Of a stretch of 64,000 nucleotides of DNA, positions 25,771 to 64,000 are shown piece by piece. The translations under genes and the position numbers were made by a program. Origin of the DNA: Azolla caroliniana (lineage: Eukaryota > Plantae > Polypodiophyta); contig JBHGNT010000010.1 of NCBI GenBank assembly GCA_043228905.1, positions 4,340,001 to 4,404,000 on the forward strand, read 5' to 3'. Under the pieces are notes generated by a model. That model saw nothing but the letters and a program-made list of their open reading frames with translations. It was not told the DNA's origin and ran no database searches. Each line of letters starts with the position of its first letter. Position 1 is the stretch's first letter.

Positions 25771-26168
25771 TGTAAACGTAAGTGTTTGCGGAAGCGTAAA
25801 ACAGAGAACAACACAGAGAGAGAGAGAGAGAGAGAGCAGAACACAATTTCAAAATTATATCAAGACTCCTTTTTCTACACATTGTGCTAAGTAGCACTAT
25901 TTATACAAGTCCTCTTGGGACTGACAGAAGTACCATGTACTTCAATGCTCACACGAGCATCTGACACTTACTACGAGACTATAGCTACCTAGTGGTCTAT
26001 CCTATACTAGGCTTCCGATTGGACTGCCGGTTACGGATTGCACGCGGCCTCCACTGCTTGCCAGTTCGGTTGCTCACCGTCATACCGATCCGTTTCGCCC
26101 GATCCGTCTCGCTTACCGGCTCCGGCTTATTCAGCCGATCCGGCTCCGGTTGAGCTTGCCGCTCAACA
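25771..26168 (-). repeat. 3' LTR of the copia element
   Basis: Direct repeat of 31895-32300, adjacent to the PPT. Confidence 0.95.
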
Positions 26169-29100
26169 CTCCCCCTCAAGCTCAACCTGAGGTGGGGTCG
26201 TAGTGTCGACCTCTATGGCAGTCGGTTCTTCCAACCGACTTCTCCTGGCGACACTCCGCCTTGCTCGCGCTCCTCGTCCGGTCCGGTCCCGTTTGTCGCG
26301 ACCCCTTTGGTTCTGCGCGCCTCGACCCTCTCGGTCGGTATGTCTGCTCAATCGGCCCATCTCAGCAGTCACGTTGTTGTGACTCCAGCGCTTGCCGATC
26401 CGTCGGTTCTCCCACGATGGCATCGACTTCCGCTGTGTCTGTGTCCCCTTGGCCTTCAATCGATCCGTCTCATCCGGATCCATCTGTTGATCCGAGTCAG
26501 CTGTCTCCGACTCGTTCCAGCTCTTGTTTGAATCGGTACACTTCGATTCGACTTCCGGTGTCAGGCCTCTCACCACATCGGACCACTTCCGAGTCTTGGC
26601 CTTCTCCATGCTTCCCTCGGCTTCTTCAGCCGGTGAACCGAAATTGAATTCTTCATTCGACTCTGTATCATGGTCAGTACCGTCGTGATGACCTCCGCAC
26701 AACATGCGCTTCTCTTCCTGAGTGCACAACTCTTCTTCACAGCCGCTTGCTCCGACCTGTTCGGATGTGTCGACTTCCTTCATCTTCTTGTCTCCTCTTC
26801 TTTCGGCTCTCCTCTTACCGATGGGTTCAACAGTTTTTTTTCCTTTGCCAGTTTCGGTAGAGACTTTGCCCTTGCTTCTCCCCCTCAAGTGCGGCACGTC
26901 GAGATGTTGAATACCAAGCATGTCGGTAAAGTGCTGCAACTTGTCCGATCCGAGCGGCTTGGTGAAGATGTCGGCAACTTGCCGATCCGTATGAACATAC
27001 CGTAGGTCAACTTCACCGCTCAGGACCCGCTCACGCATGAAGTGGTAGTGCACCTCGATGTGCTTTGTGCGAGCATGGAACACAGGGTTCCTGGCGAGCT
27101 GCAGGCTGCTCATGTTATCGCAGTAAATCGGGATTGGGGTCGGCACCTCGATCCGCAAGTCTCGCAGCAGTCGCCGAAGCCAGATGGCTTCACAAGTGGC
27201 AACGGTAGCAGCCCAGTACTCAACCTCAGTGCTTGACAAAGCCACTGTGGGCTGCTTCTTGCTGCTCCACGCAACGGCCGTGCTACCTATGGAGAACATG
27301 TATCCGGAAGTGGAGCGACGATCAGACGCATCTCCAGCCCAGTCAGCATCGGTGTAACCGACAAGCTCTTCGGGTATACCTCGGCGGTATAGCAGTCCCC
27401 GGTCCTTAGTGCCGCTGACATACCGTAATATGCGTTGCGCGCACTGAAGGTGCTCCACGGTCGGCTTCTGCATGAACTGACTTACCATGCCGACCGGATA
27501 GCTGATGTCGGGTCGGGTGATGGTTAAGTAGATCAGGCTTCCGACAACCTGTCGGAACCGTTTCTCATTGCAGGCCGGTCCGGAGTTGGGACAGAGCTTT
27601 TGGTTTCGGTCCAGGGGTGTGGAGACAGGTCGGCAATCTGTCATGCCGAACTTATACAACATATTCAACACGTAATGTCGTTGCGAGAGCAATATGTCGT
27701 CGGGGGTCCGGATCACTTCGATCCCAAGAAAATAATGAAGGTCCCCCAGGTCCTTCATTTCGAATGCGTTCAACAACTGGGACTTGACACGGTTGATTTC
27801 GGGAAGACCCGGTCCGGTGATGACTAAATCATCCACATACAAGAGTATACATACCGGACCGTCAGAGCCTTGCCGGATGAACAACGAAGAGTCCGACTTG
27901 GAGACAACAAACCCCAGCTTACGCAACCGGTGCGTGATCTTCGCGTTCCAAGCTCGGGGGGCTTGCTTCAAGCCGTAAAGCGACTTCTTCAGTCGGCATA
28001 CCGCCGACTTGTTCATCTCCGATTGAAATCCGGGGGGCTGAGTCATAAAGACTTCTTCTTCAAGCTCTCCTTGAAGGAAGGCGTTCTTCACATCCATCTA
28101 GTGAAGATGCCACCCCCTTGCCGCAACAACCGCCAGTACCACACGAATCGTCATCATCTTCGCCACAGGAGCGAAGGTCTCGTTGTAGTCGATTCCGTGG
28201 GTCTGCGCATATCCCTTCGCCACTAACCGGGCTTTGTACCGGTTAACAGAACTGTCGACGTTGTACTTGACCTTGTACACCCACTTGCATCCGATCGGTT
28301 TACAGTGACGGGGAGGATCAACTAGGTTCCAAGTTTCGTTGGCATCGAGTGCCCGCATTTCTTCGTCCATAGCGGCACGCCAATTTGCGTCCTTTGCCGC
28401 TTCTGTGTAGCTCTCCGGCTCACGCACTTCTGTCACCTTAGTCATGTATGCATAATGATGCGCAATGTATTCATTGTACTCGTACCGTATGGCGGGATCC
28501 TTCTGGCGGGTTGATCGGCGCAACGCACCGTCACCTGATTTGAGGCCCTTCTTGGCCAGTTCGGTCTTCGTTACCGAAGATCTGCCTTTCTCCTTTTCGG
28601 AGTCGGATACGCACCGATCCGACTCATCGTTGCCGGTTTCAAATTCCAGCATCTTCCTCTTCCCCTTCTCTTTGCGCGTGAACCGTTTCCTCGGTTCCTT
28701 GCGTGGGGAGAGCACGACAGAGTTTCCACCACTTGCCGTCTCTTCATCCGACTAGTCCAACCGACTCAGTCGCTCGTTCGGTCCACTCAACCGTAACGAT
28801 TCCGGACTCTCATCTTGAGTCTCGACTTCATCATCCTCTGCCAGGGCTGATTCAGGCTCACTGGCCTGATCTTCCGGCATTCGGTCGGGATCGGAAGTCG
28901 GAGTCGGTACGGAGTACTAGGATGCCGATTCATCGAACTCGACATCCCGGCTAACTCGGACTTCCTTCGTCCGGGGGTTATAGCACTTATACCCCTTTTG
29001 CTCTTGAGCATAGCCGACTAGGATGCATTTTTCCAATTTTGCATCCAGCTTTCTCCGCTTCTGATCCGGCACATGCACATACGCTATGCTGCCAAATATC

Positions 29101-31142
29101 CGAAGGTGTCTTAAGTTCGGCTTGTGCCCGAAATACAGCTCATGAGCTGACACCTTGTCACCAATGCAGTTTTGTATGTAGACGGCCGTCTAGACCACCT
29201 CCACCCAGTAGAACCGGGGCATGCTCTTCTCCTCTAGCATTGCCCTTGCCGCTTCGACGAGTGTCCGGTTCTTCCTTTCGGCCACACCATTTTGCTCCGG
29301 TGTGTATCTGCAGCTGAACTCTCGCCGAATTCCCTTCTGCTGCAGATAACTAGTGAATTGGCCGGAAAAATATTCCTTTCCGCCATCCGACCGAAGGCAT
29401 TTGATCTTCCTCTCCGATTCCCGTTCCACCATCTTCTGGAGGCTCCGGAAACAGTCGAAGAGTTCGCTCTTCCGCTCAATGAGGTAGATCCAAGTATGTC
29501 GAGTATAGTCGTCGATGAAGGAGACGAAGTATCGGCTCCCGCCAAGGCTTACACTTTGTGCCGGTCCCCACACATCCGAATGGATGAGATCGAGCTTGTT
29601 ACGGCTCCGGTTCCGTTCGGTGGGGAATGGAAACCGGTGTTGCTTCCCAAGTTGGCAGGCTTGACAAATTTCGGCTCTCCGGCTGCTGAACTTCGGCAAA
29701 CCGAAAACGACTTGTTTTGTTTGCAGGTCTTGAAGCCTCCGGTAGTTGACGTGGCCTATCCACTTGTGCCACAGGTCGATGTCCGACTCGACCTTTTGTC
29801 GATTCGCGAACAGAGCAGTGCCAAGGTCATTGGTGTTGAGGATAAACATCCTCCCATCTCTGCGCCCTTGCGCAATGACTTCGCCCTCATCCTCAATGAA
29901 GCACCCGAGGTGCGTAAACCGCACCTGCATCCCTTGGTCGACAATCTGACCGACGGACACCAGGTTCTTCGTGATTGTCGGAACGTGTAATACGTTCATC
30001 AGCTTCCCTTTCTGTCCGACGTGGCTTAGAGGGACTTCTCCGACGTGCACGATTCGGTGAGGAGTGTCGTCTCCGGTTTCAACTACTCCTGGTTGATCCG
30101 GTTTCTCCAGAAAGGAGAACCACTCTTTGTGGCTCGTCATGTGGTTCGACGCGCCGGAATCAACATACCACACTTCCTCCGTTTTGGAAGTGGTCTTCTT
30201 CATTGAGTTTGCCTTGTGATTCATCACCAAGGCTGGTCCCTTACCGGCCTTTCCGGTTCCGGATCCTCCTGATCCGTTTGCGTAGTGCGAGTTTTGCCGA
30301 CCATCCTTACCGGTCTTGCCGGATCCGGATTTGTCCGAATCGGCACGCTTTCTCCAGCACTCGCTTTCCCTGTGGCCTTTTTTTACCACAGTACCAGCAT
30401 TCCCTAGCGGATTTGTCTTGCCGGCCTCCGGCACCGCCTTGACTCCCCCTGCTTGTGGAAGTCCCGGAACTGCTGTCGGCACGCTCATAGTGCCTCCGTT
30501 CCTGCTCTTGCCGGCCGCCTCCATTGCGTGCCGACCCACCTCTTCCACCACGCCCACGGAGCCGATCCGTTCCCGTGTACAACATTCGGCTGTCCGGGGA
30601 TGCACTGGTAGATGCACCGGCGTGGTTCTCCTCTATAAGGAGCATCGACTGTAAGTCGAAGAATGAGGGGGTATTCTCCCTTGTACACACCGCAGTCCGG
30701 AACGCTCCGAACTTGGACGCCAGGCCTCTGAGACATACCTGCACCATCTCGTCTTCCTCTACGGTAACATTGATAGAGGCGAGCGAGTCGCAGATCTCCT
30801 TTATCCAGCCCGTGTAGTCTGCCACAGACATGTTCTTCTGTCGAACATTGCTCAACTCCTGTCTGAGTTGCAGCTTCCGGGCAGTGGTGCTTGCGGCGAA
30901 AACCTTTTTCAGGTTCCCCCAAGCATCCTTCGGTGTCTTGGCGTCACGGATGTGGCTGAGCAGCTGATCGCCGACACTGGACGCGAAGCAGTACATCACC
31001 TTGCTTGCCGCCTGTTCCCATACCGGGAAGTCCTTGTGTGCCGAGTCTGGCGCTGCATCATTCTCTCCTTCGACATAACTCCAGTACCCGTGTCCAAGCA
31101 GGTACTGGTGCATCTTGTAAGACCAGGATGCGTAGTTGCTCC

Positions 31143-31749
31143 TGATGGAAAATAATCGATTGACACTTTCCAAACTTCACCTCTCGGCCACAACCGAGGA
31201 AACACACGAATCGTTGTTGCAGAAAATGGGAAATGCGAAAAATAGAATGGACACACGATTTAACGTGGAAAACCCTGTACGGGAAAAAACCACGGGAGTA
31301 CAAGACTCCGAACCAAAACTATGCACAGAGAAGTATACAATGGCGAGCTGCAAGGCGACGACCTTGAGCTCGCTGTCCTCGCCACAGGCGGCGGAAATAC
31401 ACAGAGGCGTCGACCTCTTCCTCTCTCACGCTCTATCTCTCTCACGGCTGCTCTCTCTTCACTCCTCTTGAGTGGAAAAACAAAAAAATGAGTAGCAACA
31501 TTAAAACAGTTTGCCCTAAGTCATATTTATACACATATGACTTTGGGGCTATTTACAACTATAGCCTCAAGGGCCCTTGGCAAACATATTCACAGATATG
31601 TCCCCGCATCCGGATCTCTCTCCGGGTACATTCGTCATCCGGCTCAGAAGCCGGGGTCTTCATCATCCGGTTCCGAAACCGCAACCGGGCTTGTCGGCAT
31701 TCATCTCCGACATCCGACCATCCCATCCGAAGGGACCGTAATCCCAACA
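31143..31749 (-). mobile_element. Solo LTR (607 bp) of another family inserted in the copia gag; TSD GGAGC
   Basis: TGTTGG...CCATCA flanked by GCTCC at 31138-31142 and 31750-31754. Removing it restores gag MATSLPVEKLDRS|NYASWSYKM from ATG 31788. Confidence 0.88.
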
Positions 31750-31894
31750 GCTCCTGTCGAGCTTCTCCACCGGGAGCGACGTAGCCATGCCTCTATCCAT
31801 GTCTTCTACTGTGTCTGTTTTCGACCTGTTAGGGTTTTCTTCTCAAGAGTAAATGTCTGCAGCAGAGGTTCTCAACCCTCGCGCTCTGGTACCA

Positions 31895-31934
31895 TGTAAA
31901 CGTAAGTGTTTGCGGAAGCGTAAAACAGAGAACA

Positions 31935-31972
<38 letters not shown>

Positions 31973-32300
31973 ACACAATTTCAAAATTATATCAAGACTC
32001 CTTTTTCTACACACTGTGCTAAGTAGCACTATTTATACAAGTCCTCTTGGGACTGACAGAAGTACCATGTACTTCAATGCTCACACGAGCATCTGACACT
32101 TACTACGAGACTATAGCTACCTAGTGGTCTATCCTATACTAGGCTTTCGATTGGACTACCGGTTACGGATTGCACCCGGCCTCCATTGTTTGCCGGTTCG
32201 GTTGCTCACCGTCATACCGATCCGTTTCGCCCGATCCGTCTCGCTTACCGGCTCTGGCTTATTCAGCCGATCCGGCTCCGGTTGCGCTTGCCGCTCAACA
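31895..32300 (-). repeat. 5' LTR of the copia element
   Basis: Direct repeat of 25771-26168, followed on the minus strand by the PBS. Confidence 0.95.
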
Positions 32301-35210: not shown

Positions 35211-35668
35211 ATCCATAATCATCCTCTCATTTTCCTGTAATCGCACCACATTATACCTCGCATGTGATTCATGAAGAGCATGAAAGAAATTGTGTGATTG
35301 ACAATTACAGTCATCCACTTATTGTCTCAACTTATGTAGTCTAGCTTGTTGATAACTCTTAACTTTCATATCACATAAATAAGTTGATAATATTTTGTGA
35401 ATATCCAATAATTGCTCATCCATTGGCCAATAACTTAGTAACGCATTACATCGTCCCAACAATGTAGCCAAAGCCTTTATTTTTCTTCTTCTCTTGAAGG
35501 CATTGTACATTCCATAAAATCTGGATAGCTTTTGCACATTTACAACAAATACATCCCAAGCCTCAAACCCAACATCTTGAACATGTAAATTGAATTTCTC
35601 AATCAATTGACACATGTAACCATGAAATACTTCATGTTCTAAAAAAGATGAATTAAAACGAAGAGGAG

Positions 35669-37402: not shown

Positions 37403-37600
37403 ACTAAATAGTAAATAATTGTAGCTCAATCAATTCCTTTCATGATAAACCATCTACATGAAAGGAAACATAGAACCTCATAACAATACAAGCATTGTTT
37501 ATAGAATGTATAGAGGGAAATATATTTTGATTGTTTCTTTATGAGTGAAGTTTTTATTATTGATAGTCTTTTAAACCAATTTGTCAATATACTTAGAGCC

Positions 37601-37639
<39 letters not shown>

Positions 37640-37940
37640 ATGGCCAATTAACAAAATTGTATAAGCTTTAAATGTATAACATGACTAAATAGTAAATAAT
37701 TGTAGCTCAATCAATTCCTTTCATGATAAACCATCTACATGAAAGGAAACATAGAACCTCATAACAATACAAACATTGTTTATAGAATGTATAGAGGGAA
37801 ATATATTTTGATTGTTTCTTTATGAGTGAAGTTTTTATTATCGATAGTCTTTTAAACCAATTTGTCAATATACTTAGAGCCAACAAGAGAGAGAGAGAGA
37901 GAGAGAGAGATCATGGCCAATTAACAAAATTGTATAACAT
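37403..37940. repeat. Near-perfect ~281-bp tandem duplication downstream of centrin
   Basis: ACTAAATAGTAAATAATTGTAGCTCAATCAATTCC... at 37403 and 37684, each ending (GA)nTCATGGCCAATTAACAAAATTGTATAA. Confidence 0.92.
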
Positions 37941-48146: not shown

Positions 48147-51100
48147 TTAAGACATGTCTGATGGACTAGAAGAGCATTCTGACGTCTCATCCTCATCATC
48201 AGTGGCAATCAAAGCATTATCCTCATCCAATTCCAACCCAACATCTTTGTGGTTATGAGAATTGCTTCTGGTTATTCTCTGTATTTTGTTTGACACCATG
48301 TTTGGGATTTTCTCCTTTATTATCTTGATAGTTGCTTGTCTCAGATGACCTGATTTTGTCAATGAGAAGTCATATACTAGTATGTCAACACGGTCTAGTG
48401 CGAGAGTAGCCGTGCTCGGTATATTCTTTCTTCTTCTCTTTCTGCTTGAACATCCGACATCCTTAACCATCTCTAAAGAATACTTTCCTGTAAATGCATC
48501 AAGTGAATTTGTCTGATACCAGTGGACTACTATTGACTTTGTCTGACTACTTTCTTCATCCCTTACTAATTCAATAATTTTTGCAATCCAAAATGGATGG
48601 CCCAAGGTATCGTCCCCTGCTAATGTTGCAACCAACATTCCCACTTGTAGTTCTTGCAAATTACCTTGCCATCTTGCCTCAACAGTACGTTGTCGTGCCT
48701 TTCGGCTCCGGATCGTTGCGTGAGTCGGGTGGGAACCGCCGAGGTTTTGGACTAGGAGAAAGAAGAATATGAGATAAGGCTAGTAATGAATATATTATTA
48801 GAAAGAGAGATAGAAATTTCGTGAATCCCACGAGTGTATTGTAATCGATTAATCAATATTTAGATAAAATATGTATTTAGATTGAAAGAAAGATATAAGA
48901 AACTTGTGAATCCCACAAGTATAGATTATATTATTTTCGTGAATCCCACGATTATATTAATCGGTTGGTGTTTTCGGAAATATATCCAATTTCCAAATAT
49001 TTCACACACCTATTACATTGTGCTCCCCATCCTTATATAGTGATGGGAGAGACTAAGCATAGCTACATGCTTTTTTTCTAATATGTTCATGCACACTAAA
49101 TGTGCATGTGATGCTTTCTTAATCCTTGCTTTTATTTGCTAAATATAGTGCTCATGCACGCTAGATGTGCATGAGTCACTTTTTAGTTGCTTGCGTTTTT
49201 CTATAAAATATTCACGCACTCTAAAAATGCACGATTTACCTTTTAATAAAGGTAGGTGCAAATAAAGCACTTATAGTTATTAAATCTATTTGTAGAACAC
49301 TAAAGATAAGGTAGCATAATGGTAAAGTTGAGGTTTGGCTATGTGGAGGTACAAGGTTCAAATCTTGCCCTATGCACGTGATAAATATCTTGATATTCTT
49401 ATTTTATTTATTGGTGATAAATATCTTGATATTCTTATTTTATTTATTTATATGTAATTAAATCGGTTATATTATTTTTACTTTTTCACGTAGTGTACGA
49501 AATACACTACGACACTCGCCCCCTCCGAACCCGCACATCCTCCGGTATGTGCCGAAGTTGCCGATGCTCGTTGTCTCCCCTTCATCCTCCGTTTGTCCCG
49601 CTATGTCAACTTTGTCTCTCCATTTTGAGTAGACCCATTCTTTTCACCCGAACCATTGTCGCCATCCGATCCACCATATTCTTTGTTCTCTCTCGTCATA
49701 TTCTTGGCCCTTGTCATTCGTGGTAGTGTCTTTTACTGGCCTCTTTCTTGTCTTCATCAACCTTGACTTTTTTCCGGATCGCTCTCGTCCGATCGACTTT
49801 CGGTTTGATCGGCTTCCGATCGGATTCGTATTCGGCCGAATCGGAATCGGTTGTTTGGTTTCGATTGAGTCGGTCTCCTTCCGACCCGGTTTCGATCTAT
49901 CGGTTTCGGTTTTGGTTGGCTTTCTTTTCCTCGTTTTCACCAGCCTCGACCGGTCCAACCTTCGGTTGAGTCGGATTAGCTTCTTTCCGGATCGGTCTCG
50001 TCCGATCGGCTTTCGGCTAGGTCGGCTTCCATCCATATTTGCGTTCGGCCAAGTCAGACTCGGTCGATCGGTTTTGACCGAGTCGACCCCTTTTCAGGTC
50101 GGCTTTCTTTTGGGTCGTCTTTCGACCGAATCCTCATTCGCCCGGTTCGGCTTTCTTTCGGGTCGACTTTTGGTCGAATCCTCTTTTACCCGGTTCGGCT
50201 TTCTTTCGGATCGGAATCCCGTCCGGATCACCTTCCATCCTAACTGGCTTCCGACTTTACCTTTCTTGCCGCCACCTCCCGTCTCTCCGGTCTCACGTTG
50301 GTTCTCGGACACAACTGCCGAAGTCTCTAGAATTAGTGGGTAGGAATCCTCGGTATTATCATCCTCCATTGTTTCACCCATAGCCATATTCTCGGCTATC
50401 TCTCTGTCGTATGCATCGACTTCGACCTTTGTTTTCTCTCCGCCACCTTCCGTCTCTTCGGTCTCACGTTGCCTTTCGAACGCAACCGCCGGAGTCTCTG
50501 GAATCAGTGGTGGAGAAATCTCAATATGGCCATCCGCCATTGATTCGTCCATAGCCACCTTCGATTCGATGTCATCTTTCTTGGTGACCTCCTCAATCAA
50601 GTCCTCTTTGCTCTCTTTCATTGCATCAATTATGCTTACCCCTTTTTCACCCGATGTTTCGGACACTTGTATTCTGAAATCTTCTTCTACACTTGGGTTA
50701 TCGGCCTTATCCTTCGTCATTGTTCTTTCGCAAGACAAGAGGGTAGCTTGTTTTACACCCTCTTCCGTCGGACCATCATGTTGTATTTCGGCCTTCATAT
50801 CGGCTCCATCGTTTGTCTTCAATCGACCATCCTTCATCGGCCATGTCGTTGACAAGATTCTCATCTTCCTCTCATCATGTCTCCGGCATACCCTTTGGAC
50901 TTCGGCCCAATTTTCGGTAAGACCATTCGTACCGTTATCGTCTTCGAGTTCAATCCCGATGTCCTTCCTTTCTTTCCGATCAATCGATCTTACGAACATT
51001 AGGACTTTGTCCTCCCCCACCAATCTTTGTTCTTGCTCTGAGAGTCGCGCAAAACGATGCTCGAACTCTAGGAATGCTTGTGTTGCACTTTGGTGGGTCT

Positions 51101-54100
51101 TCTCCGATGCCACCCATTCGTCGAATTTTCGCCGATCTTGTCCCTTTGATCTCTTGTAATCATATGCCTCTCGTAAAGCTTCTTCGAATGACCCCCATGT
51201 CGAGTTTTGTTGCCGTATCTTGTGGATTCTCTCTTGTAGCTCATCCGTGGCCACCCGATTGAAGGATGTCACTTGCAATCCTTCCGGTATCCCACATCGT
51301 ATCATCTCCGCCTTGTAGTCACGTAGATAGCATGACACATCGTTTCCGTTGAATTGTCCGTTTCGTTGTACGAGCCGCTTTACTGCCCCCGTGATCTCCG
51401 ACATCACTCGTTGTTCTTGTAGCATCCGCTCGAACATCATCATCATCGTTATGCTCATTGCCTCTTGTTGATTCTCCATCTCCTTGCCACCCGCCTTCAC
51501 GTCGGGTTCACCAACTGTGTCGTGCCTTTCGGCTCCGGATCGTTGCGTGAGTCGGGTGGGAACCGCCGAGGTTTTGGACTAGGAGAAAGAAGAATATGAG
51601 ATAAGGCTAGTAATGAATATATTATTAGAAAGAGAGATAGAAATTTCGTGAATCCCACGAGTGTATTGTAATCGATTAATCAATATTTAGATAAAATATG
51701 TATTTAGATTGAAAGAAAGATATAAGAAACTTGTGAATCCCACAAGTATAGATTATATTATTTTCGTGAATCCCACGATTATATTAATCGGTTGGTGTTT
51801 TCGGAAATATATCCAATTTCCAAATATTTCACACACCTATTACATTGTGCTCCCCATCCTTATATAGTGATGGGAGAGACTAAGCATAGCTACATGCTTT
51901 TTTTCTAATATGTTCATGCACACTAAATGTGCATGTGATGCTTTCTTAATCCTTGCTTTTATTTGCTAAATATAGTGCTCATGCACGCTAGATGTGCATG
52001 AGTCACTTTTTAGTTGCTTGCGTTTTTCTATAAAATATTCACGCACTCTAAAAATGCACGATTTACCTTTTAATAAAGGTAGGTGCAAATAAAGCACTTA
52101 TAGTTATTAAATCTATTTGTAGAACACTAAAGATAAGGTAGCATAATGGTAAAGTTGAGGTTTGGCTACGTGGAGGTACAAGGTTCAAATCTTGCCCTAT
52201 GCACGTGATAAATATCTTGATATTCTTATTTTATTTATTGGTGATAAATATCTTGATATTCTTATTTTATTTATTTATATGTAATTAAATCGGTTATATT
52301 ATTTTTACTTTTTCACGTAGTGTACGAAATACACTACGACAACGTGACTTTCTTGGTCCCACATAAATATCTCTTTGCAGTGGCCGAACTAAATCATGAA
52401 GCTCCATATTATTCGATTGTTGGTGATGAGTCTGCGATATCGTTGATGTCATCCCAATGTTCCATGTGAATGGGATACAGATTGGCCATAAACCGACGAT
52501 GTAATTATCTAAAATGGTGTGTTGATGGGTGAAGAAAATCTCCCACCATTCAACATCCTCATCACCGGCATACTTCTTAGTCCGATCAATATTATTTTGT
52601 TTCTCTGCTAGACATCTCAACCAATATGCCCTTTGTTCATCAATAGTACTATTTGGTGCTACATTTTTACGATCATCATATGGCATTTGTTGTGCACCAT
52701 GTAGAGGTTCATCTGGGATATGAAGAAGGAGCCTACAACCTTCTTGGGGCTCCCATTGTGCACTAGATGAGTATTGTTTCGCAAACAACACCGTCATCTT
52801 CAGGTGGGCCGATCTTTGTTTTATGAGGAAGACATGGTTGAAACTTATATTATTAAGAGGTGCAAGCACCCTACCTTTAGTCCCGTCACTATCCATGCAG
52901 AAACGTTTAAAGTCGTATACTTCTTCCAAGTGTTGTACTTCAGGCTTTGGTGTATATGCTTCACTAATCAATTTGGATAGCGTGGGAAGTGTGAAAGCAT
53001 TACAGCGAGCAAGTTTCTTTGAGAACCTACTGAACATTTGATCTATGTGATCATGGGTATGACCAACCAACAAGAAGTTAACCTTTATCTTTTTAAATAT
53101 GCCCCTCTCTACTAGCATGCTTAGATAGCCGAAGACAGTTGAGTTCTTATTCTCTCTTGCTGTGTTGTCTAGTTGCACATATAGAACTGGCGGGAGTATA
53201 CCTGACCATGATTGCAATACCCTGTGCATGACAGTGACAGTAAGATTAGGGTCGTTGTGGATATTGGGATAAGTTAAGAACACTTGCGGTCTTATAGTTT
53301 GACAATATGTCAAACAACCCACTAGATGCATTTGCACGAGACACTCATCTCCAATATCCTTGGGGAGTCTTTGAAAATGCGGCAAACAAGTTTTCTTTTG
53401 ATCCATGCCGTCAATAATCATGCACATATACTTTTCGGGAGATTGAAACACTTTTTGTCGGTGATGCATAGCCTTAGTATGTTCCAATGCCTGACTTTCA
53501 CGATGTTCTTTTAACAGGTTCTTGTAATTCTTGATCTCTACATCTGATTTTCCACCCTTGGCCATACTTTTTAAACTCGCACATATTGAGCAGACTCCCA
53601 TTCGCACCTTTCGTGGGATAACCACGTTATTAAATTGTAACCTCCATAGTCGATTAAAATGCATGTACTGTATGTAAGGCTCAACATCGGAAGACATGTC
53701 GTCCTTGTACGATTGGTAAACTTCCCTTCGAGTAAAGTTATCTGACAAATGAAGTCTTCCTGTCGTTGGCATAACTTCGCACTGTTTTGAAAAATATACC
53801 TCCATCCACCTAATTGCCTGTTGCCCAATTTGACCCTTACATCCAGAACCATTTTGATCGAACTGTACCCAGGAGCCCTTCAGAAGTCGCTCTTGAACTC
53901 GTTGCAGCCGCATATTTCCAATGCTATGAGTGATTTTAAAAGCTGCTCGACAACACTTGGTATTTAGTCCAAGGAAATATTCAACTTGCGTTGAATTAGG
54001 CCCTGCTTTGTGATCCAATTTAAGTTGCATATGCGCAAGAAGAAATGTATCTTGCTCTTCCCCATTAAGCGACAAGTATTTTTGTCGTGTTTCACGTAAC

Positions 54101-54474
54101 CTTGACTTTCCATAAGTTGATAGACAGAGATTCGCACAACACGATTTGTTCAAGTCGCATAGAAGTTGACGATCAGAACATAAGAAATTAAATCTCTTTT
54201 CACTAACTTGTCGAGGAACTCTTTTAAATGCTAGAGGTTTAGTAATGCTATTGTTATCTATCGACGAAGAATCGTCCGCTTGTAAGCTTGCATGAAGAGA
54301 GCCATCAACAGGATCAATTGAAAACAGAGAATTCGAAGTACTAGGAGCCACACTTTTCTGTTTAAGCTGCGAATGTTTTTTGTGGTCGTACTCTTCTATT
54401 GAGAAATACGAGTTGTCTGACAATGAAAAGGGGGCAATAGAAAAAAGAGATGTTCTACTTGTAGAAGAAGACAT
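48147..54474 (-). CDS. Transposase, ~890 aa when 54474-52342 is joined to 48686-48147; interrupted by an LTR element
   Basis: CC...C and CxxC clusters; IIDGMDQKKT; LYVQLDNTARENKN; FLLVGHTHDHIDQMFS. After removing the insert and one TSD copy the frame reads GPRKSR|TVEARWQGNLQEL with no stops. Confidence 0.85.
49312..49364 (+). promoter_or_regulatory. Pol III type-2-like A box/B box within the LTR, antisense to the element; copies at 52139-52191 and, on the minus strand, ~54878-54930 and ~61308-61360
   Basis: TAGCATAATGG fits TRGCNNARYGG; GGTTCAAATC B box ~33 nt downstream. Confidence 0.6.
50094..51479 (-). CDS. Gag-like protein with acidic, repetitive C-terminus; no pol
   Basis: N-terminal half closely matches the gag at 55505+ (QRNGQFNG.DVS.YL.DYKAEM...GLQVTSFNRVATD); C-terminal half has a duplicated PL..ET.AV...QRET.ETGGG unit. 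Confidence 0.85.
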   Translation of the reverse strand: MENQQEAMSITMMMMFERMLQEQRVMSEITGAVKRLVQRNGQFNGNDVSCYLRDYKAEMIRCGIPEGLQVTSFNRVATDELQERIHKIRQQNSTWGSFEEALREAYDYKRSKGQDRRKFDEWVASEKTHQSATQAFLEFEHRFARLSEQEQRLVGEDKVLMFVRSIDRKERKDIGIELEDDNGTNGLTENWAEVQRVCRRHDERKMRILSTTWPMKDGRLKTNDGADMKAEIQHDGPTEEGVKQATLLSCERTMTKDKADNPSVEEDFRIQVSETSGEKGVSIIDAMKESKEDLIEEVTKKDDIESKVAMDESMADGHIEISPPLIPETPAVAFERQRETEETEGGGEKTKVEVDAYDREIAENMAMGETMEDDNTEDSYPLILETSAVVSENQRETGETGGGGKKGKVGSQLGWKVIRTGFRSERKPNRVKEDSTKSRPERKPNRANEDSVERRPKRKPT

Positions 54475-55504
54475 TTGAGGGAGTCTAATTGTATTCTAAA
54501 ACCTTTTTTTGAGAAAATTAAGGAATGCTAAAGCCTAACTATATAACTACCCGATCACTTAGATTAACTATATTATTTTCCGAAATTTTCCTAAAAAACA
54601 AATAATTAAAAAATATTTTTTATTTTAAAAGGAATGCTAAAGTCTTCTATATAAGGAGGTTAGAAATTTCATTTTCATTATCACGTTGTCGTAGTGTAGG
54701 TTGCACACTATGTGGAAATTATATTTTTGTCTCTCCGGATAGAGAATGGATTGCTCGGTGAGAACCGGAAGAAAACGGCATACCGGCAAGGAAGAAAACG
54801 GCATACCGGCAAGGAAGAGCCGGATAAAGAGACATAAATGTAAAAAGAAAGGAAATACTCACTACTGGGCAGGGCGTGATTTGAACTTTGCACCTCCACG
54901 TTGACAAACCCCAACCTTACCATTACATTAACTTTTCTTAAGTGTTTTAAATATAGATTTAATACGTATAAGACCTTTATTTATGCATACCTTTATTAAA
55001 AGGTAAATCGTGTATTTTTTTAATATATGAAAAAGAAAAACGCGAGACACTAAAAATAACTCATGCACATCTAGCGTGCATGAGCCCTATACTTAGGAAA
55101 TAAAAAAGCATCACATGCACATTTAGTGGGCATGAACATATTAGAAAAAAGCATGTATCTATGCTTAGTCTCTCCCATCACTATATAAGGATGGGGAGCA
55201 CATTGTAGTTTTTGTTGATTATTTGGATTAAGTATTAATCAATACAAAAATTATTCGTGGGATTCACGATTTATACATCTACTTCTCTCTTAACACCCTA
55301 AGTACCAATTAATATAGTATACTCGTGTGATTCACGAGTTTCTTATCTTTCTCTTTGCTATTTACTCATAATTAATCTCTATCTCACGAACTTCTTTCTC
55401 CTAGTCCAAGACCTCTGTGGTTCCCACCCGACTCACGCAACGATCCGGAGCCAAAAGGCACGACACAAGTTGGTGAACCCGACGTGAAAACGGGTGGCAA
55501 GGAG

Positions 55505-57546
55505 ATGGAGGCTCAACAAGCTAACAATATGATGGCGATGTTCGAACGGATGCTTCAAGAACAACGCACGATGTCGGAGATTTCGGCATCAGTATCTAGC
55601 GGCTCGTGCAACGCAACGGGCAATTTAATGGTAAGGATGTGTCGCGATATTTGCAGGACTACAAGGCGGAGATGCTCCGGTGCCGGGCTTCGGAAGGACT
55701 GCAAGTGACATCCTTTAACCGGGTGGCGACCGACGGGCTTCAAGGGAGTATCCACGGGTTGCAACAACAAAATCCGACGTGGGAAGCATTCGAAGAGGCG
55801 TTAAAGACCACGTTTGCCATCGAGGACTCCTCCAAGGCAACGCGGAGGGGATTCGAGGATTGGGTGGAAACGTCAGGTAAGGGGCTGAAGGTCCTCGAAG
55901 TGTTTTCGACATTCGAAAGTCGGTTCGGGAGGTTGTCCGCGAGAGATCAAACTATTCTTGCACCGGACAAAGTCATCATGTTTTTGCGAGCTGTGGACGT
56001 CCGGGACCGGAAAGATCTCGGAGTGCTTCTTGAGGACACGACCACCGAAAGCGGCCTCACCGAAACATGGGAAAGCGTGCGGGATATCGTCGCGCGGTAC
56101 ACGAAGAGGGGGCAATGGCTTGCCAACGAAGAAAAGAGGGTTTCAGAACCGATTCCGAAACCGAGAACGGGACTGGAAGACCATCAACCGAGGGCTCGGG
56201 AGATTACAGCCGAGAAGGGAGTCGACGCGTCTACGGTGGAGCAGTTGCTGAAGGAGATGGAGAATCTAAAGATCGCGATGGTGAAGAAGTCGGATGACCG
56301 CCCTACAAGCTCCAAATATACGGATCGACGGTGCATATGGTGCGATAGCGCCGAACACGATCGGAGGGATTGCGACGACCATAAGGAGGCGCTACGACGG
56401 GATCTCATCTACTACGAGGGAAACCGGATTCATTCGATGGACTCTCGGAAGCCACTCCGACCGAACTTCCGGAAAGGCGGCATGAAGAAGGTGCTCAAGG
56501 AGGAGTTAGCGGCAAGAAGCAACTATGCGACAACCGCGGGAATATGTGTCGGGGAGTCAACGGGAGCGAAGGCGTCTTTTTGGCCGGAGGTGCTAGGAAA
56601 CACCGAGAAAACCGACTCCAACGATATCCGAAACACCGCGGAAGGCGTCCGGGAAGCTACGGGATGGGAGTGCCCTGTCGACAAGAATAGCATATACGCC
56701 CTGTGTCAATTACATGAGGTGTATGTGGACGAGAAACGACGGCGCACGGAGGATGCGGCCGGACCATCGAAGATACCGGAAAGCTGGAACTCCGGAGGTA
56801 AGGGAAAAGAAAAGGCGACTCCGGCATTCAAGCTCGCCTCGGACATAGAACAACAAACCGACTTGAAAAGAGTGTTCGAGGAAAGAATCTTGGATAGCCG
56901 GGTAGATTTTTCGCTGCGGGAACTACTCGGAATAGCGAAGAAGGAGTTTCACGATCTTCTCGTGGATCTCGTGAAAAGGAAGAGACAAAGTACGGAGGAA
57001 AATGCTCCAAGGGTGAATGCAAATACCGTTTCAATGAACGACACCGAAGTGGAAGGCGAAATTCCGAACTCCCACTATACAAGGCCACACTGGGCACGTG
57101 CGACTACGGAGACTCCGGTCCGAATCGGCAACATCAAAGAACCCGTGCTAGCATTGATTGATCACGGATCGGAGATCAACTTGATGTCCAAGGAGTTCTA
57201 CCGAAAGGGGAAGTGGCCTATAAACACCAACCATGGATGGAAGATTCGGGCAGCCACGAAAACGACAGAAGACCTGTTTGCGGCTTGTCCGGATGTGACG
57301 GTAAAGATCGGGGATGTCGAAATTGACCAAAATTTCTTTGTACAGGATGAGGTTTCACATTCTGTCATCCTCGGCCAACCCTTTATCACGGCTTCACGGA
57401 TGGAGACGAAGGTGCTCGATAGTGGTGCGGCTTTTGCGCGAATTCGGAGCCAAAACGGAGGGAAATCCGTCCAATTCCTAACGGTGCCGGCAAATCACGA
57501 AAGGAACAAGAGGGAACTCTTGTCCCAAGTGAGAATGGATTTTTAA
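55505..57546 (+). CDS. Gag-protease, with one disabling frameshift near 55590
   Basis: CIWCDSAEHDRRDC zinc knuckle; ALIDHGSEINL protease; ILGQPF; ends MDF*. Confidence 0.88.
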
Positions 57547-60500
57547 AGCGGACTGTTGCGGAGTGGGGAAGTGATAGTCCGAAAAGCCCTGATACCCCAC
57601 ACAGGAAGAAACCTCTCGGAGCAAAACAAGTACGAATCGGCCCGGATGGGGCATCTACGTACACGGCCGTAACCGGAGGAATGAAGAAACAATACCGACA
57701 AGTGGAGGATAAGTTACGGTCGGCATCAATAATAAAAGAAGACGAAGAAATCGTGGGAGTGATCGAGGAAGTGTTCTATGGGAATACACTACAACGGCTT
57801 GAAGAGCTTGCGGAAGATAAAAGCCAAGGGAACCGGGTAGTCCCGGTGGAATCGGTCGAGATGTACGAGATCATTGCGAAAATGGAGCCGGATACGCTCC
57901 GCAAAGAAGAAGCAATGGTAAGTACGAAATACAAGACCGTGGAGAAGAAGGTGAAACCGGCCGCGGGACCACTACCCGCCGATAGCGAACAAAAGAGGAA
58001 AGAAGTCTCGGGAGATCCGACACTTCGGAAGTCCGTGGATATCGGACATGCCTTCACAGATGAGACCCGGAAGAAACTTCGGATCGGTGGAGGTGGGTTC
58101 CTCTTACAAGAAGAAGAAAAACGGTTTCGAGAGATGTTGGAGCAACACGGCAAAGCATTCGCGTTCACATCGAGGGAGATCGGATGCATTGATCCAAAGA
58201 TAGTGGAGCCGATGGTGATTTTCACGATTGATCATGTACCGTGGAACCTGAAGCCGATTCCGGTGCCACGGGCGCATATTCCGAAAGTCATCGACTTGCT
58301 CAAGGAGAAGGTGGCGATGGGGATTCTAGAGCCATCAAGTGCTCCGTACTCAAATCGATGGTTTACGGTTCCGAAGAAGAATGGGTCACTCCGATTCATC
58401 CAAGACTTGCAACCGGTGAACAAGGTCACGATCCGGAACTCGGGAGTCGGTCCGATAGTGGACGAATTCGCGGAAGCTTTTGCCGGACGTGCGATATACT
58501 CCATCGGGGACCTATACTCGGGGTATGACCAATTCCAACTAGCTGTGGAGAGCCGAGACATCACTACCATGCGGACACCGATAGGACTAGTTCGAATGTG
58601 CACACTACCACAAGGAGCGACAAACTCGGTTGCACATATGATGAACGCGATGAACAAGGTGCTTCGAGATTGCATCCCGGGGATAACGATGCCGTTTCTA
58701 GATGACATTCCGATGAAAGGATGCGCGGTGGAAGAAAAAGATGAGACTATGGATGATCGGGGATGCCGAAAGTTCGTGGTCGACCATATTCATGATTGCG
58801 AGAAAGTGTTGCGAAAGCTAGAAGATGTGCACCTAACACTTTCCGGGGAGAAATCGGCATTCGGGCAAGAAGAAATATTGGTGGTCGGACATCTATGTGG
58901 ACCCTACGGCCGAAGACCGTCACCAACAAAGATCGATGCGATTCAAGCTATGAAGGAAGTATGTGAGTCAACATCGGAAGTCCGAAGGTTTCTGGGTGCG
59001 TGTGCATTCTATCACATATGGATTCCGCACTATGCACATATAGCGAACCCGCTCTATCACTTGTTGCGGAAAGGTAAGAAATTCGAGTGGAAACCAGAAC
59101 ACACTAAAGCCATGAGGAAGCTCAAGAAGACACTATGGAGGGCGGAATCACTTAAGAAGCCAAGCTACGAGCGGCCAATCATAGTAACGGTTGATACAAG
59201 TCCAACCGGTATCGGGTGGGTCATCAATCAAGCCGACTCGGATGGTTCGCGGTATCCGATCCGATTTGGAGCAAAGGTCCTCAACGAAAGGCAACGCGGA
59301 TATGCACAAGTCAAAAGAGAATTGTGGGGAGTCGTGTCGGCGATAAAATCGGAGCTGAAGTGGTGATCGAGACGGATTGTCTTCCGATACTCGGGATGAT
59401 GCGGTGTTGTACGATACCGGATGTGGCTATGCTAAGGTGGATTGCATATGTCAAGTCACTTAATCCGGAGGTTCGACACATCTCGGGGAAGGACAACGCG
59501 GTAGCGGACATGTTATCGAGGGCGCGGTTTGAAGACGACATAACCGAATCAGATAATGAAGAAGTTTCCGAAGACTACTTCACGTCAGAACACATATGCC
59601 GAGTGAACGTGATCCGAGAATTCCGGGAAGAAGAATACGAGGGGGAAACCTTGATGATCGGGAAGATGCTACAAGAGGTCGAGGATTCAACCAATGATAA
59701 AGAAAGGAGAGCCGAGATCCGAAGGAAGAAGAGGCAAGTCCAAAAGTTCTTCTTGGAAAACGGTTTAATATGGAGGACGCCGAAAAGACCGGATGGGATA
59801 CCACTTCGAGTAGTCGGGACGAAAGAGCAACGAAACCGGATAATGTCCGAGTTCCACGAATCCGATTGGGCTGGACATCGAGGAACATGGGCAACTTTTG
59901 TGAAAATCAAGCAAAGATATTGGTGGAAGAACATGTATAAAGATGTCGCGGAGTTCACAGAAAGCTGCGAGAAATGTCAAGTCTACTCCGGGGTCCGACA
60001 CCGAGATGAGCTGCATCCGACATTCTCACCGACAATCAACTTCAAGTGGATGGTCGACATTGTAGCTATGCCGACCGGGATTGGACAAAAGAAATACTTG
60101 GTGTTAGCTCGAGAAGATCTCACAAACCAAGTTGAAGGTCGAGCGCTTCGGAGGAAAACGTGTGCCGCGGTGTGCCAATTTCTTTTGGAAGAAGTGTTTT
60201 GTAGGTACGGCTGCGTAGGACAAGTGATTGCGGACCGGGGAGAACTCGACTCGGACAAAGCTAGGGGATTCTTCGCCAAACATGGAGTTCGGTTAACGTT
60301 GACAACGGCCTACAATCCGGAGGCCAACGGGAAGATCGAACGAGGACATAGTCCGATCGTGAAAGCACTTGCGAAGGCATGCGACGGAAGGGTGAAGGAT
60401 TGGCCACAAATGCTTCCGTATGCACTATGGGCGGATCAGACGACGCATAGCTCCGTGACCGGTTACATGCTGGCAGAACTCATGACCGGACAAGCACCAG

Positions 60501-61129
60501 TAATGCCAACGGAAACCGCAATCGCGACATGGACAATACTACCGTGGAAGGAAGAGATGAGCCGGGAAGAACTACTAGCGGTCCGGATACGACAACTGGA
60601 GGGAAGACCGAAAGATGTAGCGGAAGCGTCACGCCGACAACAAGAAGCACGGTTCCGGAACAAAAGCCGGTTCGACACAAAGCACCGACTACGACCGAGG
60701 AGGATTGAAGAAGGAGATTGGGTGATCGTCTATGATAGTAGCTTGGACCATCAACATACAACGATGCGGAAATTCGCGAAAAGGTGGTTCGGGCCGTACG
60801 AGGTTCGGAAGGTCTTCGACAACGGGACGTACCGACTGTCCGAGTTGGATGGAACAATACTACGAGTGCCTATAGCCGGGAAGCGGGTGAAGATTTTCAA
60901 GAAGCGGACCGACGACAAACCTTATGTGATCCAAGTCGAGGCCGACAACGAGGAGCAATCGGACGAAGACCACAATGATGCGGGAAGCGAAGAAAGTGGA
61001 TTACAACTCATAGTCGAAATAAGGGGAGAATCGGAGGAAGCTTCGGATGAAGACGGATACGAAGAATCAAGAACTTCGGCACATACCGGAGGATGTGCGG
61101 GTTTGGAGGGGGCGAGTGTCGTAGTGTAG
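57540..61129 (+). CDS. Pol (RT-RNaseH-integrase), entered by -1 frameshift; one disabling frameshift/deletion near 59345
   Basis: LRFIQDLQPVN, DLYSGYDQF, LPQGATNSV, FLDD; VDTS...RELWG; H..GH..CxxC, IADRG, NGKIERGH, WFGPY; acidic tail, no chromodomain seen. Confidence 0.9.
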
Positions 61130-62136
61130 GTTGCACACTATGTGGAAATTATATTTTTGTCTCTCCGGATAGAGAATGGAGTGCTCGGTGAGAACCGGAA
61201 GAAAACGGCATACCGGCAAGGAGGAAAACGGCATACCGGCAAGGAAGAGCCGGATAAAGAGACATAAATGTAAAAAGAAAGGAAATACTCACTACTACGC
61301 AAGGCATGATTCGAACTCTGCACCTCCACGTTGACAAACCCCAACCTTACCATTACATTAACTTTTCTTAAGTGTTTTAATATAGATTTAATACGTATAA
61401 GACCTTTATTTATGCATACCTTTATTAAAAGGTAAATCGTGTATTTTTTTTAATATATGAAAAAGAAAAACGCGAGACACTAAAAATAACTCATGCACAT
61501 CTAGCGTGCATGAGCCCTATACTTAGGAAATAAAAAAGCATCACATGCACATTTAGTGGGCATGAACATATTAGAAAAAAGCATGTATCTATGCTTAGTC
61601 TCTCCCATCACTATATAAGGATGGGGAGCACATTGTAGTTTTTGTTGATTATTTGGATTAAGTATTAATCAATACAAAAATTATTCGTGGGATTCACGAT
61701 TTATACATCTACTTCTCTCTTAACACCCTAAGTACCAATTAATATAGTATACTCGTGTGATTCACGAGTTTCTTATCTTTCTCTTTGCTATTTACTCATA
61801 ATTAATCTCTATCTCACGAACTTCTTTCTCCTAGTCCAAGACCTCTGTGGTTCCCACCCGACTCACGCAACGATCCGGAGCCGAAAGGCACGACAACGTG
61901 AAAGAATCCATCGAGCTCAGAGCACAGGCCAATTTTCGAGCACTCAGAAGCACATCGTCGACAGCACTACCTCCGGCACGAACCATGAACAAGGGAAAGA
62001 AAATCGTCAGGTTAGTAATATTCTTTACATTTTTTAAGATTCCTAAAGATTCCTTAAAGATTCCTTTCCTCAACACATAGATATTTTATTTTATTTTGTA
62101 CAACGAACTTGGAAAGCAATTTTGAAAGGCAGGACC

Positions 62137-62196
62137 TTCAACCAAAATCCGATGCAGTGACCTTCAACCAAAATCCTGCATCGGATTTTGGTTGAA
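62137..62196. repeat. 21-bp perfect inverted repeat with a direct repeat in the loop
   Basis: TTCAACCAAAATCCGATGCAG ... CTGCATCGGATTTTGGTTGAA. Confidence 0.9.
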
Positions 62197-62357: not shown

Positions 62358-63149
62358 ATTGGAGATTCAATCTCCGACACGAGTAAAAAGATTTTATTTG
62401 ACTCAACGGGGGAAGGAGGATCCAAGTCATCTGTGGCTACTACCAAAATCAACAAAGGTAGTACGCAAGAGGAGAAAACGGTTGAGGTGAAATATAAGGA
62501 TTACCCCGAACTTGAATGGTGTCTCTCTTATGTCGAGGAGGATGGGGTGTTGTTATTGATAACGGCAAAATCGGACGGGGAAGGGAAACTTCAGCTTGGA
62601 AAAACATTTAATTATGGGCATGTAACCAAGCTAGAGTACGAAGACATTGATTCTACATGTATTTTAATCGACATCTCGAGCTCAGTTTGCGACAGGCGAT
62701 TGCGACTTAATGAGGGAAACCTAGTAACCGAATCTTGCAATCCCAAGGCTTTGCGTAAAGACCTGCAAACGAAAAATAACTTGTTGGTAGCTCTTCGGTC
62801 GTACGTGACAGGAGAGATGATGACCGGTGAAGCAGAAACTCCACCGAAAAAGTCTAGGAAGACAAATCTTGTTCAAAAGAAATATACTAAACGACCACGA
62901 CCCGAAGAAGAAGAAGAAGAAATATTAGAGTTCGTGGAAGAAGAAGACGACCAACAAGTTGACGTTGTCGAGATATTACGCAAGTGCGTGTGGAAACGAG
63001 GCGGGACCGCGGGGGTCTCGAACCAAAGAGCAAGCGAGGGAGGAGAAAGAGAGAGAACCGGCTACGCAGGACCGGGGATACACAGGGACACGGCCCTTCA
63101 GCACGGAGAACGCGAACAGACACCGACACAGACAGATGCGAATGACTAA
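62358..63149 (+). CDS. Hypothetical protein, possibly an accessory gene of the DNA transposon; 5' structure unresolved (possible exon from ATG 61985)
   Basis: ~260 open codons with NLS-like PPKKSRK/KRPRP and an acidic tract; TATA at ~54646 would sit upstream before the gypsy insertion. Confidence 0.45.
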   Translation: MGDSISDTSKKILFDSTGEGGSKSSVATTKINKGSTQEEKTVEVKYKDYPELEWCLSYVEEDGVLLLITAKSDGEGKLQLGKTFNYGHVTKLEYEDIDSTCILIDISSSVCDRRLRLNEGNLVTESCNPKALRKDLQTKNNLLVALRSYVTGEMMTGEAETPPKKSRKTNLVQKKYTKRPRPEEEEEEILEFVEEEDDQQVDVVEILRKCVWKRGGTAGVSNQRASEGGERERTGYAGPGIHRDTALQHGEREQTPTQTDAND

Positions 63150-64000
63150 ATATGTATATTAACAAAATGGCTAACACGACTACAACCCTCGATGGGGCAC
63201 AGGTTGGTTACAACCGAACAGGCCGGCGAACAGATGCCGATGCTTGTTCGCTTCGACGCACAAAGGGGCAGCAGGTCGGAGGTGCTGCCGGAAGCACTCG
63301 GGCGTTCCTCGAAATAGCGCGAGCCTCCTCGGGACCCTGCACAGAAAGCTATGGAGCTCAAGAAGGAAGGAAACAGAGAGAGAAGCGTCCAGAAACGGTC
63401 CGACAGCACTTCGTCCTCTCTTCGCGAGATCCCTGCAACAGCTCTTTCCTGCTCCTTATATAGGCCGACGAGCAGGCCGTCATGTCAGCTTTATTCCCTG
63501 TCCCTTTCGAACAGGGATCCGCTCCGTTCTTCACGCATCCGCGTAGTTACGCCGCCGACTCGTACAGTTCCTTAGCTCGCGCGCGCGACCGAAAAGACTG
63601 TTCGCGCGGTCTTTGTCTCCACTTGTGTTAGGGCCCGTTCCTGCCGATTATCCTCCTAATTCGCTTCTATGTACAACCTGGAGCGTGCGCGCGTGAAGAA
63701 CCGGTTCCCACGCCTTGGTGCGTCGATTCCGCTTATGGACGGTTTTCTTCACGACATCCGCCCCCACCTAACCGCGCATCCTCCGGTATGCGCCAAGAGA
63801 GTTGGGACGGAGAAAACCGGCCCGTCTTCATTCCTCGCCCGTCGGTTCTTCCTCGTTTTCGGATCGTTCGTCACTGCTGACTAGGAGAGCCGGGTCTGGC
63901 TCGTCGTCGTGTCGCTTCTTGAACGCTTTGATCCGCTTCCCTGCAACCGGTATCGCCATTCTCGTGCCGTCGAGTTCTGTCAGGTGATATGTCCCGTTGT

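What the first reader, a model, noticed from the sequence alone, without database searches (positions are those of the whole stretch)
48687..61899. Sequence-specific gypsy family: two independent insertions, both with a 4-bp ACGT TSD, in the same DNA transposon
The empty sites reconstruct as CAGT-ACGT-GACT and TATC-ACGT-GAAA; in element orientation both read TC-ACGT-R. Most plant LTR elements make 5-bp TSDs with little specificity (the copia and solo LTR here do). Two hits on the same CpG-containing palindrome ~2.3 kb apart, in otherwise CpG-poor surroundings, suggest an integrase that recognises a G-box-like ACGT motif and perhaps favours young CpG-intact or methylated TEs as safe havens. One hit breaks the transposase; the other lands in its divergent promoter region. 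n=2, so the preference is inferred.
Basis: partly seen in the sequence, partly recalled or inferred. Interest (0 to 1): 0.8.

Follow-up and report, generated by a model that had tools for sequence, protein, structure and literature searches.

The report
Fern retrotransposons that land on CpG
Two jumping genes here each duplicate the four bases ACGT, a third has ACGT at its one visible end, and most other copies checked also sit on CG-centred sites, so their integrase likely picks CG-centred sites, a habit already published for the moss 'Phygy' group and seen here in what is likely a fern, with no sign that they aim at this one DNA transposon.

Summary
Two Ty3/gypsy elements (48691-52341 minus, gag-only; 54687-61895 plus, full-length but frameshifted) each carry a 4-bp ACGT duplication. 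An empty-site contig and an intact transposase homologue confirm the sites. A third, missed relative starts at 62966, also beside ACGT. The preference is real but broader than claimed. Public contigs give at least 77-100 flanks per run that fit ACG; ACGT is roughly 40-50% of shown flanks against 0.12% background. Metagenome junctions: 4 of 8 ACGT, 1 CCGC, 3 NTGN. This is the NCGN preference that Neumann et al. 2019 report for Phygy. Duplication length, domain content and an integrase nesting among liverwort elements fit; the Trp primer identity is recalled, and placement against Phygy references was not testable. The extended TC-ACGT-R/G-box motif and targeting of this transposon are unsupported (0 of 8 flanks); methylation dependence is untested. 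The scan noted Phygy-like elements in this genome and NCGN targeting in a fungus before. Verdict: new, likely fern, member of a known kind.

The parts
48687..48690 (.). E1 target-site duplication ACGT (left copy)
48691..52341 (-). E1: non-autonomous, gag-only Phygy-like LTR element, 3651 bp
48691..49514 (-). E1 3' LTR (824 bp; 1 difference from the 5' LTR)
50094..51578 (-). E1 gag-like frame; no Pfam match; N-terminal part similar to E2 gag
51497..51513 (-). E1 primer-binding site, 4 nt from the LTR (tRNA-Trp type by recall)
51518..52341 (-). E1 5' LTR
52342..52345 (.). E1 target-site duplication ACGT (right copy)
52342..54474 (-). Host DUF7869 (PF25273) transposase-like gene, 5' part, interrupted by E1
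48147..48686 (-). Host DUF7869 gene, 3' part, in frame with the 5' part
54683..54686 (.). E2 target-site duplication ACGT (left copy)
54687..61895 (+). E2: full-length Phygy-like Ty3/gypsy element, 7209 bp, frameshifted in gag and in RNase H
54687..55465 (+). E2 5' LTR (779 bp)
55471..55487 (+). E2 primer-binding site, 5 nt from the LTR (tRNA-Trp type by recall)
55600..57546 (+). E2 gag (DUF4100) and protease frame
57423..59366 (+). E2 reverse transcriptase and start of RNase H, in the -1 frame
59195..61129 (+). E2 rest of RNase H and integrase (H2C2 finger, core, SH3-like); no chromodomain match
61105..61116 (+). E2 polypurine tract
61117..61895 (+). E2 3' LTR
61896..61899 (.). E2 target-site duplication ACGT (right copy)
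62358..62965 (+). Conserved coding exon of unknown function, head-to-head with the transposase, cut by E3; whether it belongs to the DNA transposon is open
62962..62965 (.). ACGT flank of E3 (the other copy would lie beyond the window)
62966..64000 (-). E3: third element of the lineage; 3' LTR 62966-63756 of unrelated sequence, similar purine tract, integrase C-terminus at the window end
25771..32300 (-). Control: Ty1/copia element with 5-bp AATCT duplication

Best explanation
These are Phygy-like Ty3/gypsy retrotransposons, likely in a fern, whose insertions duplicate 4 bp and centre on CG, most often ACGT, likely because the integrase itself selects a CG-centred site. Shown: 4-bp duplication, ACGT at 3 of 3 window insertions, strong enrichment of ACG/ACGT at other copies, tolerance of other outer bases. 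Inferred: the integrase cuts with a 4-bp stagger and bends the target at the central pyrimidine-purine step, as 4-bp retroviral integrases do (PMC4422553), with added base contacts that narrow this to CG and favour A..T outside it; gag-only E1 borrows integrase from an E2-like partner; NTGN flanks are either later deamination of methylated CG or tolerated TG steps. Because young transposons are up to five-fold richer in CG than bulk DNA here (7.1% versus 1.4%), the preference would by itself bias insertions into other young elements. The pile-up in this DNA transposon is likely a local nest, not family-specific targeting.
For: Window junctions. Run X3: 45 contigs leave the LTR 3' end with a majority flank starting ACGT although the reference had no ACGT there. 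Three runs of three studies: contigs diverging after ACG / after ACGT / after ACGTG were 26/45/18 (X1), 29/71/not shown (X5), 27/50/not shown (X10); background ACG 0.42%, ACGT 0.12%. Metagenome junctions: 5 of 8 NCGN, 8 of 8 with a YG centre. Neumann et al.: Phygy 186 elements, 100% 4-bp NCGN, 81% tRNA-Trp, no extra domain. No chromodomain or second RNase H. Integrase nests among Riccia elements, fungal elements outside. Host gene closest to Adiantum and Ceratopteris by identity, 70-72%; host transposase closest named is Ceratopteris. Empty E2 site at depth about 9,560 and 2,565 against 4-60 for listed flank contigs.
Against: No whole genome was held, so there is no full logo from paired duplications; contig counts are partial (77 rows not shown), may absorb a first-base mismatch, and the 40-50% ACGT share is a rough mixture estimate. 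Three of 8 metagenome flanks are not NCGN, and the two ends of L007 disagree. Three insertions in about 3.4 kb of a 52-kb pre-insertion window are more clustered than uniform placement predicts (post hoc p 0.0006-0.012), even weighting by CG or ACGT, so sequence preference alone does not explain the cluster. Phygy reference sequences could not be read; E2 is shorter than the Phygy range (7,209 versus 7,656-9,968 bp); the tree is a quick search.
Confidence: 0.8

Rival explanations
1. The integrase reads methylated CpG (or is tethered by a methyl-CpG or heterochromatin factor), which steers these chromodomain-less elements into silenced transposons; the sequence logo is the footprint of that.
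For: Centre is CG rather than any pyrimidine-purine step; host bulk CpG o/e 0.40-0.46 implies CpG methylation; 3 of 8 flanks look like deaminated CG; all 8 flanks have CpG o/e 0.56-1.6 in the nearest 300 bp; local pile-up of three insertions; Phygy reported nested in Tcn1 elements and enriched at predicted centromeres of a liverwort.
Against: No methylation data seen. Flank contigs from short-read assemblies are biased to repeats. The CG-rich copia in the same window (463 CG, 13 ACGT) has no insertion. Ginger1 transposons have CCGG/CCGT duplications and Drosophila ZAM-group elements CGCG (that flies have little CpG methylation is recalled), so CG-centred choice does not need methylation.
Confidence: 0.2
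2. One reading: strict ACGT/G-box recognition with targeting of this DNA transposon family.
For: 3 of 3 window insertions at ACGT; two certainly and perhaps three in one DNA transposon; the E2 site is a full CACGTG; post hoc clustering p about 0.001-0.01.
Against: About 29-35% of ACG-starting flanks shown lack the T; CCGC, ATGC, ATGG, CTGT flanks; TC before and R after ACGT not kept in other copies; 0 of 8 flanks hit the transposase or second ORF; the E2 site seen only empty (contigs drop rare variants, and only this site was tested).
Confidence: 0.07
3. Coincidence or mis-called ends: ordinary 5-bp or random target sites.
For: ACGT is palindromic and extends the terminal inverted repeat, which can blur ends.
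Against: Inner LTR junctions fix the ends; empty-site contigs and intact homologue hold one ACGT; enrichment of some hundred-fold.
Confidence: 0.01

Closest known systems
Phygy clade of non-chromovirus Ty3/gypsy elements (Neumann et al. 2019, PMC6317226; passages and supplementary file MOESM5 read)
   Same: 4-bp duplication with NCGN preference; no chromodomain, extra RNase H or extra ORF; coding region fills the interior; primer site that I recall as tRNA-Trp type.
   Different: Described from the moss Physcomitrella (later a liverwort, PMC12885004 passages); here likely a fern. ACGT appears modal (about 40-50%), several families with unrelated LTRs and a gag-only partner share the site; E2 is slightly shorter than the reported range.
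Ginger1 DNA transposons (Bao et al. 2010, PMC2836005; passages)
   Same: Gypsy-type integrase, 4-bp CG-centred duplication.
   Different: DNA transposons of animals; sites CCGG (75%) or CCGT/ACGG (24%).
Drosophila errantiviruses, ZAM subgroup (PMC5408687; passages)
   Same: Ty3/gypsy integrases with palindromic 4-bp targets (TATA, CGCG, ATAT).
   Different: Another lineage, AGT..AnT ends, env gene in many; CGCG has GC at the centre.
4-bp-duplication retroviral integrases, PFV and MLV (PMC4422553; abstract and section 6)
   Same: Selection of a pyrimidine-purine step at the centre of a 4-bp site; PFV integrase is the best solved match to the E2 integrase (E 1e-17).
   Different: Their preference is weak (about 63% above chance); here the CG centre is far stronger.
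TatI and Selgy clades (PMC6317226 supplement)
   Same: 4-bp duplication; TatI uses tRNA-Trp.
   Different: TatI carries an archaeal-type RNase H, not found here; Selgy uses tRNA-Ala and is about 5 kb; no sequence preference reported.

Membership tests
Ty3/gypsy LTR retrotransposon | LTRs with TG..CA ends, primer site, purine tract, order gag-protease-RT-RNase H-integrase | tested here: met
Phygy | Phylogenetic placement of RT/RH/INT with the REXdb Phygy reference set (the defining criterion) | not testable with these tools
   Reference FASTA and element table too large to read. Substitute: integrase tree of 85 of 120 homologues places E2 among Riccia elements, fungal ones outside (quick search).
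Phygy | 4-bp target-site duplication | tested here: met
   2 of 2 complete window elements; empty sites
Phygy | NCGN target preference | tested here: met
   3 of 3 window insertions; 5 of 8 metagenome junctions, the other 3 NTGN; contig counts
Phygy | Primer-binding site for tRNA-Trp | tested here: inconclusive
   The 17-nt site is present in E1, E2 and 20 loci (the loci were selected on it). Its identity as tRNA-Trp is recalled; no tRNA gene was in the window.
Phygy | No chromodomain, no extra RNase H, no extra ORF; coding region spans the interior | tested here: met
   Pfam scans of E2 frames and of P0002, P0012
Phygy | Length 7,656-9,968 bp (descriptive; the paper calls size relatively insignificant for classification) | tested here: inconclusive
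   E2 is 7,209 bp and damaged
TatI | Archaeal-type extra RNase H | tested here: not met
   No such Pfam match; REXdb profile not available
Chromoviruses (incl. Galadriel, Tcn1) | Chromodomain at the integrase C-terminus | tested here: not met
Sola-type DNA transposon (host element) | Terminal inverted repeats, 4-bp duplication, Sola transposase placement | tested here: inconclusive
   DUF7869 match and deep empty-site contig; ends not found; the Sola label comes from earlier scan notes, untested

The most novel reading that the evidence does not exclude
CG-centred integration is an ancient trait of one gypsy clade spanning fungi, liverworts, mosses and ferns, and its integrase reads methyl-CpG directly, giving chromodomain-less elements a DNA-level route into silenced transposons such as this one.
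Probability: 0.2. Interest if true: 0.7.

Novelty: new member of a known kind. Interest (0 to 1): 0.3.

Why it matters
The headline is in print, but in my searches only as one sentence and a table cell in one paper. This window adds a likely fern host, a large copy base, a modal ACGT site and at least three families sharing it. Plant LTR integrases with a real sequence preference are rare, and a CG-centred one offers a clean test of whether an integrase can sense DNA methylation, and of how much nesting in young transposons follows from CG density alone.

Tried and rejected
No whole genome held, so the genome-wide logo and family enrichment were not run. Integrase and transposase scans of viral contigs found no relative; the prokaryote scan gave one weak, unrelated locus. 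Cluster look-up gave no informative names and no Physcomitrium reference. No RNA holder listed; not used as evidence. X1 has no cover beyond 61908 and X1/X3 none at 54560-54629; holes prove nothing. Ends of the DNA transposon not found. The second ORF has 79 homologues but no family (16 of 79 scanned); Atlas hits were under its bar. GingerRoot (PMC6839031, passages) has 6-bp GC-rich sites without a motif; the Yarrowia paper (PMC5014426, passages) and PMC2864245 (passages) gave no Ylt1 target site. Dropped before counting flanks: fuzzy terminus matches inside coding regions or without LTR similarity, and one doubtful start in L018 (flank ACTT, 40 bases inside an LTR); 13 of 20 loci held no outer junction. 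Dropped from the tree: 35 of 120 homologues covering under 320 residues. The extended TC-ACGT-R motif was rejected.

Full report
Observation. E1 spans 48691-52341 on the minus strand, E2 54687-61895 on the plus strand; each is flanked by ACGT on both sides and the fifth base differs, so the duplication is 4 bp. The inner LTR junctions, next to the primer site and the purine tract, fix the TG..CA ends. The host frame is open for 718 codons before E1 and 179 after it, in register, and the intact homologue P0234 reads across. Contigs in runs X5 and X10 join the two flanks of E2 over a single ACGT.

Anatomy. E2 encodes gag with DUF4100, protease, RT, RNase H and an integrase with H2C2 finger and SH3-like end; Pfam finds no chromodomain or second RNase H (also P0002 and P0012). 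It is frameshifted near 55600 and 59350. E1 has only a gag-like frame. The LTRs of E1 and E2 are about 73% alike, 92% over the last 90 bases; their LTR pairs differ at 1 of 824 and 11 of 780 columns, so they are sister families that inserted at different times. It cuts a conserved exon whose homologues continue past the junction.

Host. The ACT-domain exon at the window start is closest by identity to Adiantum and Ceratopteris among named hits (70-72%, against 60-62% for bryophytes and lycophytes), and the DUF7869 protein's closest named hit is Ceratopteris. A fern is likely; this is inference.

Target sites of other copies. No genome was held, so I used two substitutes. First, 20 metagenome loci selected on the LTR end and primer site: 7 held outer junctions, 8 in all, reading ACGT four times, CCGC, ATGC, ATGG and CTGT. 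The two ends of L007 disagree, probably a collapsed assembly. Second, contigs of public runs. With a reference lacking ACGT at the LTR end, 45 contigs of X3 left it with a majority flank beginning ACGT. With the ACGT junction as reference, contigs left after ACG, ACGT and ACGTG in numbers 26/45/18 (X1), 29/71 (X5) and 27/50 (X10); 70-76 left at the LTR end itself, a mix of primer-site contigs and flanks not starting with A (77 rows not shown). A rough mixture estimate gives ACGT in 40-49% of shown flanks, against 0.12% in host DNA. The aligner may absorb a first-base mismatch, so these rows speak more firmly for the CG core than for the outer bases. The preference is therefore strong, CG-centred, ACGT-modal and not strict.

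Is the DNA transposon a target? For: three insertions lie within about 3.4 kb of a 52-kb pre-insertion window; post hoc probabilities are 0.005-0.012 for two in the core and 0.0006-0.004 for three including the second exon, by length, CG or ACGT weight (a hand calculation for any span that short gives about 0.012). Against: 0 of 8 metagenome flanks match the transposase or second exon; the E2 site appears only empty, at depth about 9,560 and 2,565 against 4-60 for listed flank contigs, which suggests a high-copy family (depth is no copy number, contigs drop rare variants, and only this site was tested); 8 other ACGT sites in the same host segments are unused. One relative sits in another's LTR at an ACGT and one beside copia sequence. 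A local nest is the simpler reading; the cluster itself is not explained by sequence preference alone.

Mechanism. Retroviral integrases with 4-bp duplications select a pyrimidine-purine step at the centre, where the target bends (PMC4422553, abstract and section 6), and PFV integrase is the best solved match. I infer the same geometry with base contacts that narrow the step to CG. CG density is 7.1% in the young copia against 1.4% in bulk host DNA, so the preference alone would favour CG-rich young repeats. The three NTGN flanks fit later deamination of methylated CG or tolerated TG steps; single flanks cannot tell. Nothing here tests methylation dependence.

What is known. Neumann et al. 2019 state that Phygy elements have an insertion preference for NCGN (PMC6317226 passages); their table gives 186 elements, 100% 4-bp, 81% tRNA-Trp, no extra domain (supplement MOESM5). 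Jedlicka et al. report mostly 4-bp duplications for Phygy, GC-rich centres, and Phygy nested in Tcn1 (PMC6911290 passages); Phygy is also annotated in a liverwort (PMC12885004 passages). The E2 integrase is 65% identical to Riccia elements and 37-40% to fungal ones and nests among the former (quick tree, 85 of 120 homologues). The reference sequences could not be read, so I file the elements as Phygy-like, membership probable. That the primer site matches tRNA-Trp is recalled. CG-containing 4-bp targets are also known for Ginger1 and ZAM-group elements.

Not found in print. Searches returned one paper with NCGN and, by their listings, none on Phygy target sites in ferns, on an ACGT mode, or on methylation dependence; subscription journals and two unread supplements may hold more. 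Earlier scan notes report Phygy-like nesting elsewhere in this genome and NCGN sites in a fungus; both are unchecked leads.

Verdict. A real, well-supported target preference, already described for the lineage; modestly new in host range and detail. Interest 0.3.

Noticed in passing
window 62966-64000: Third element of the lineage with an unrelated LTR but the same termini and an ACGT flank; runs off the window.
   Followed up: yes
window 57536-57600: The protease frame ends GGATTTT plus stop in E2 and 3 of 3 loci covering it, followed by a hairpin whose GTGGGG loop could pair with a downstream CCCCAC: likely a -1 frameshift signal with pseudoknot placed after the protease, not between gag and protease.
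   Followed up: partly
window 51514-51517, 55466-55470; L001-L020: The primer site lies 4 nt from the LTR in 19 of 22 cases, longer than the 2 nt I recall as usual.
   Followed up: partly
window 62358-62965: Conserved exon (79 homologues, no Pfam family) head-to-head with the DUF7869 gene; may be a second gene of the DNA transposon. Earlier notes describe ParB-methyltransferase partners for similar elements; not shown for this one.
   Followed up: partly
window 62133-62196: Perfect 21-bp inverted repeat with a third partial copy between the two head-to-head genes.
   Followed up: no
window 48147-54474: DUF7869 gene with no stop on either side of E1, 97% to an 890-aa protein over the searched region: a young, apparently high-copy DNA transposon whose ends were not found.
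   Followed up: partly
L015:2953-3024: A family LTR inserted at an ACGT inside a relative's LTR.
   Followed up: partly
window 50094-51578: E1 is a gag-only non-autonomous element with a repetitive acidic/basic gag tail; L007 is a similar one.
   Followed up: partly
window 34538-35211: Degenerate copia LTR and gag fragment, 71-75% to the intact copia, opposite strand.
   Followed up: no
window 43514-45362: Decayed frames that look like a LINE reverse transcriptase (by eye; no Pfam match).
   Followed up: no
window 20785-22289, 37403-37937: Local tandem duplications of about 800 bp (74%) and 281 bp (96%).
   Followed up: no
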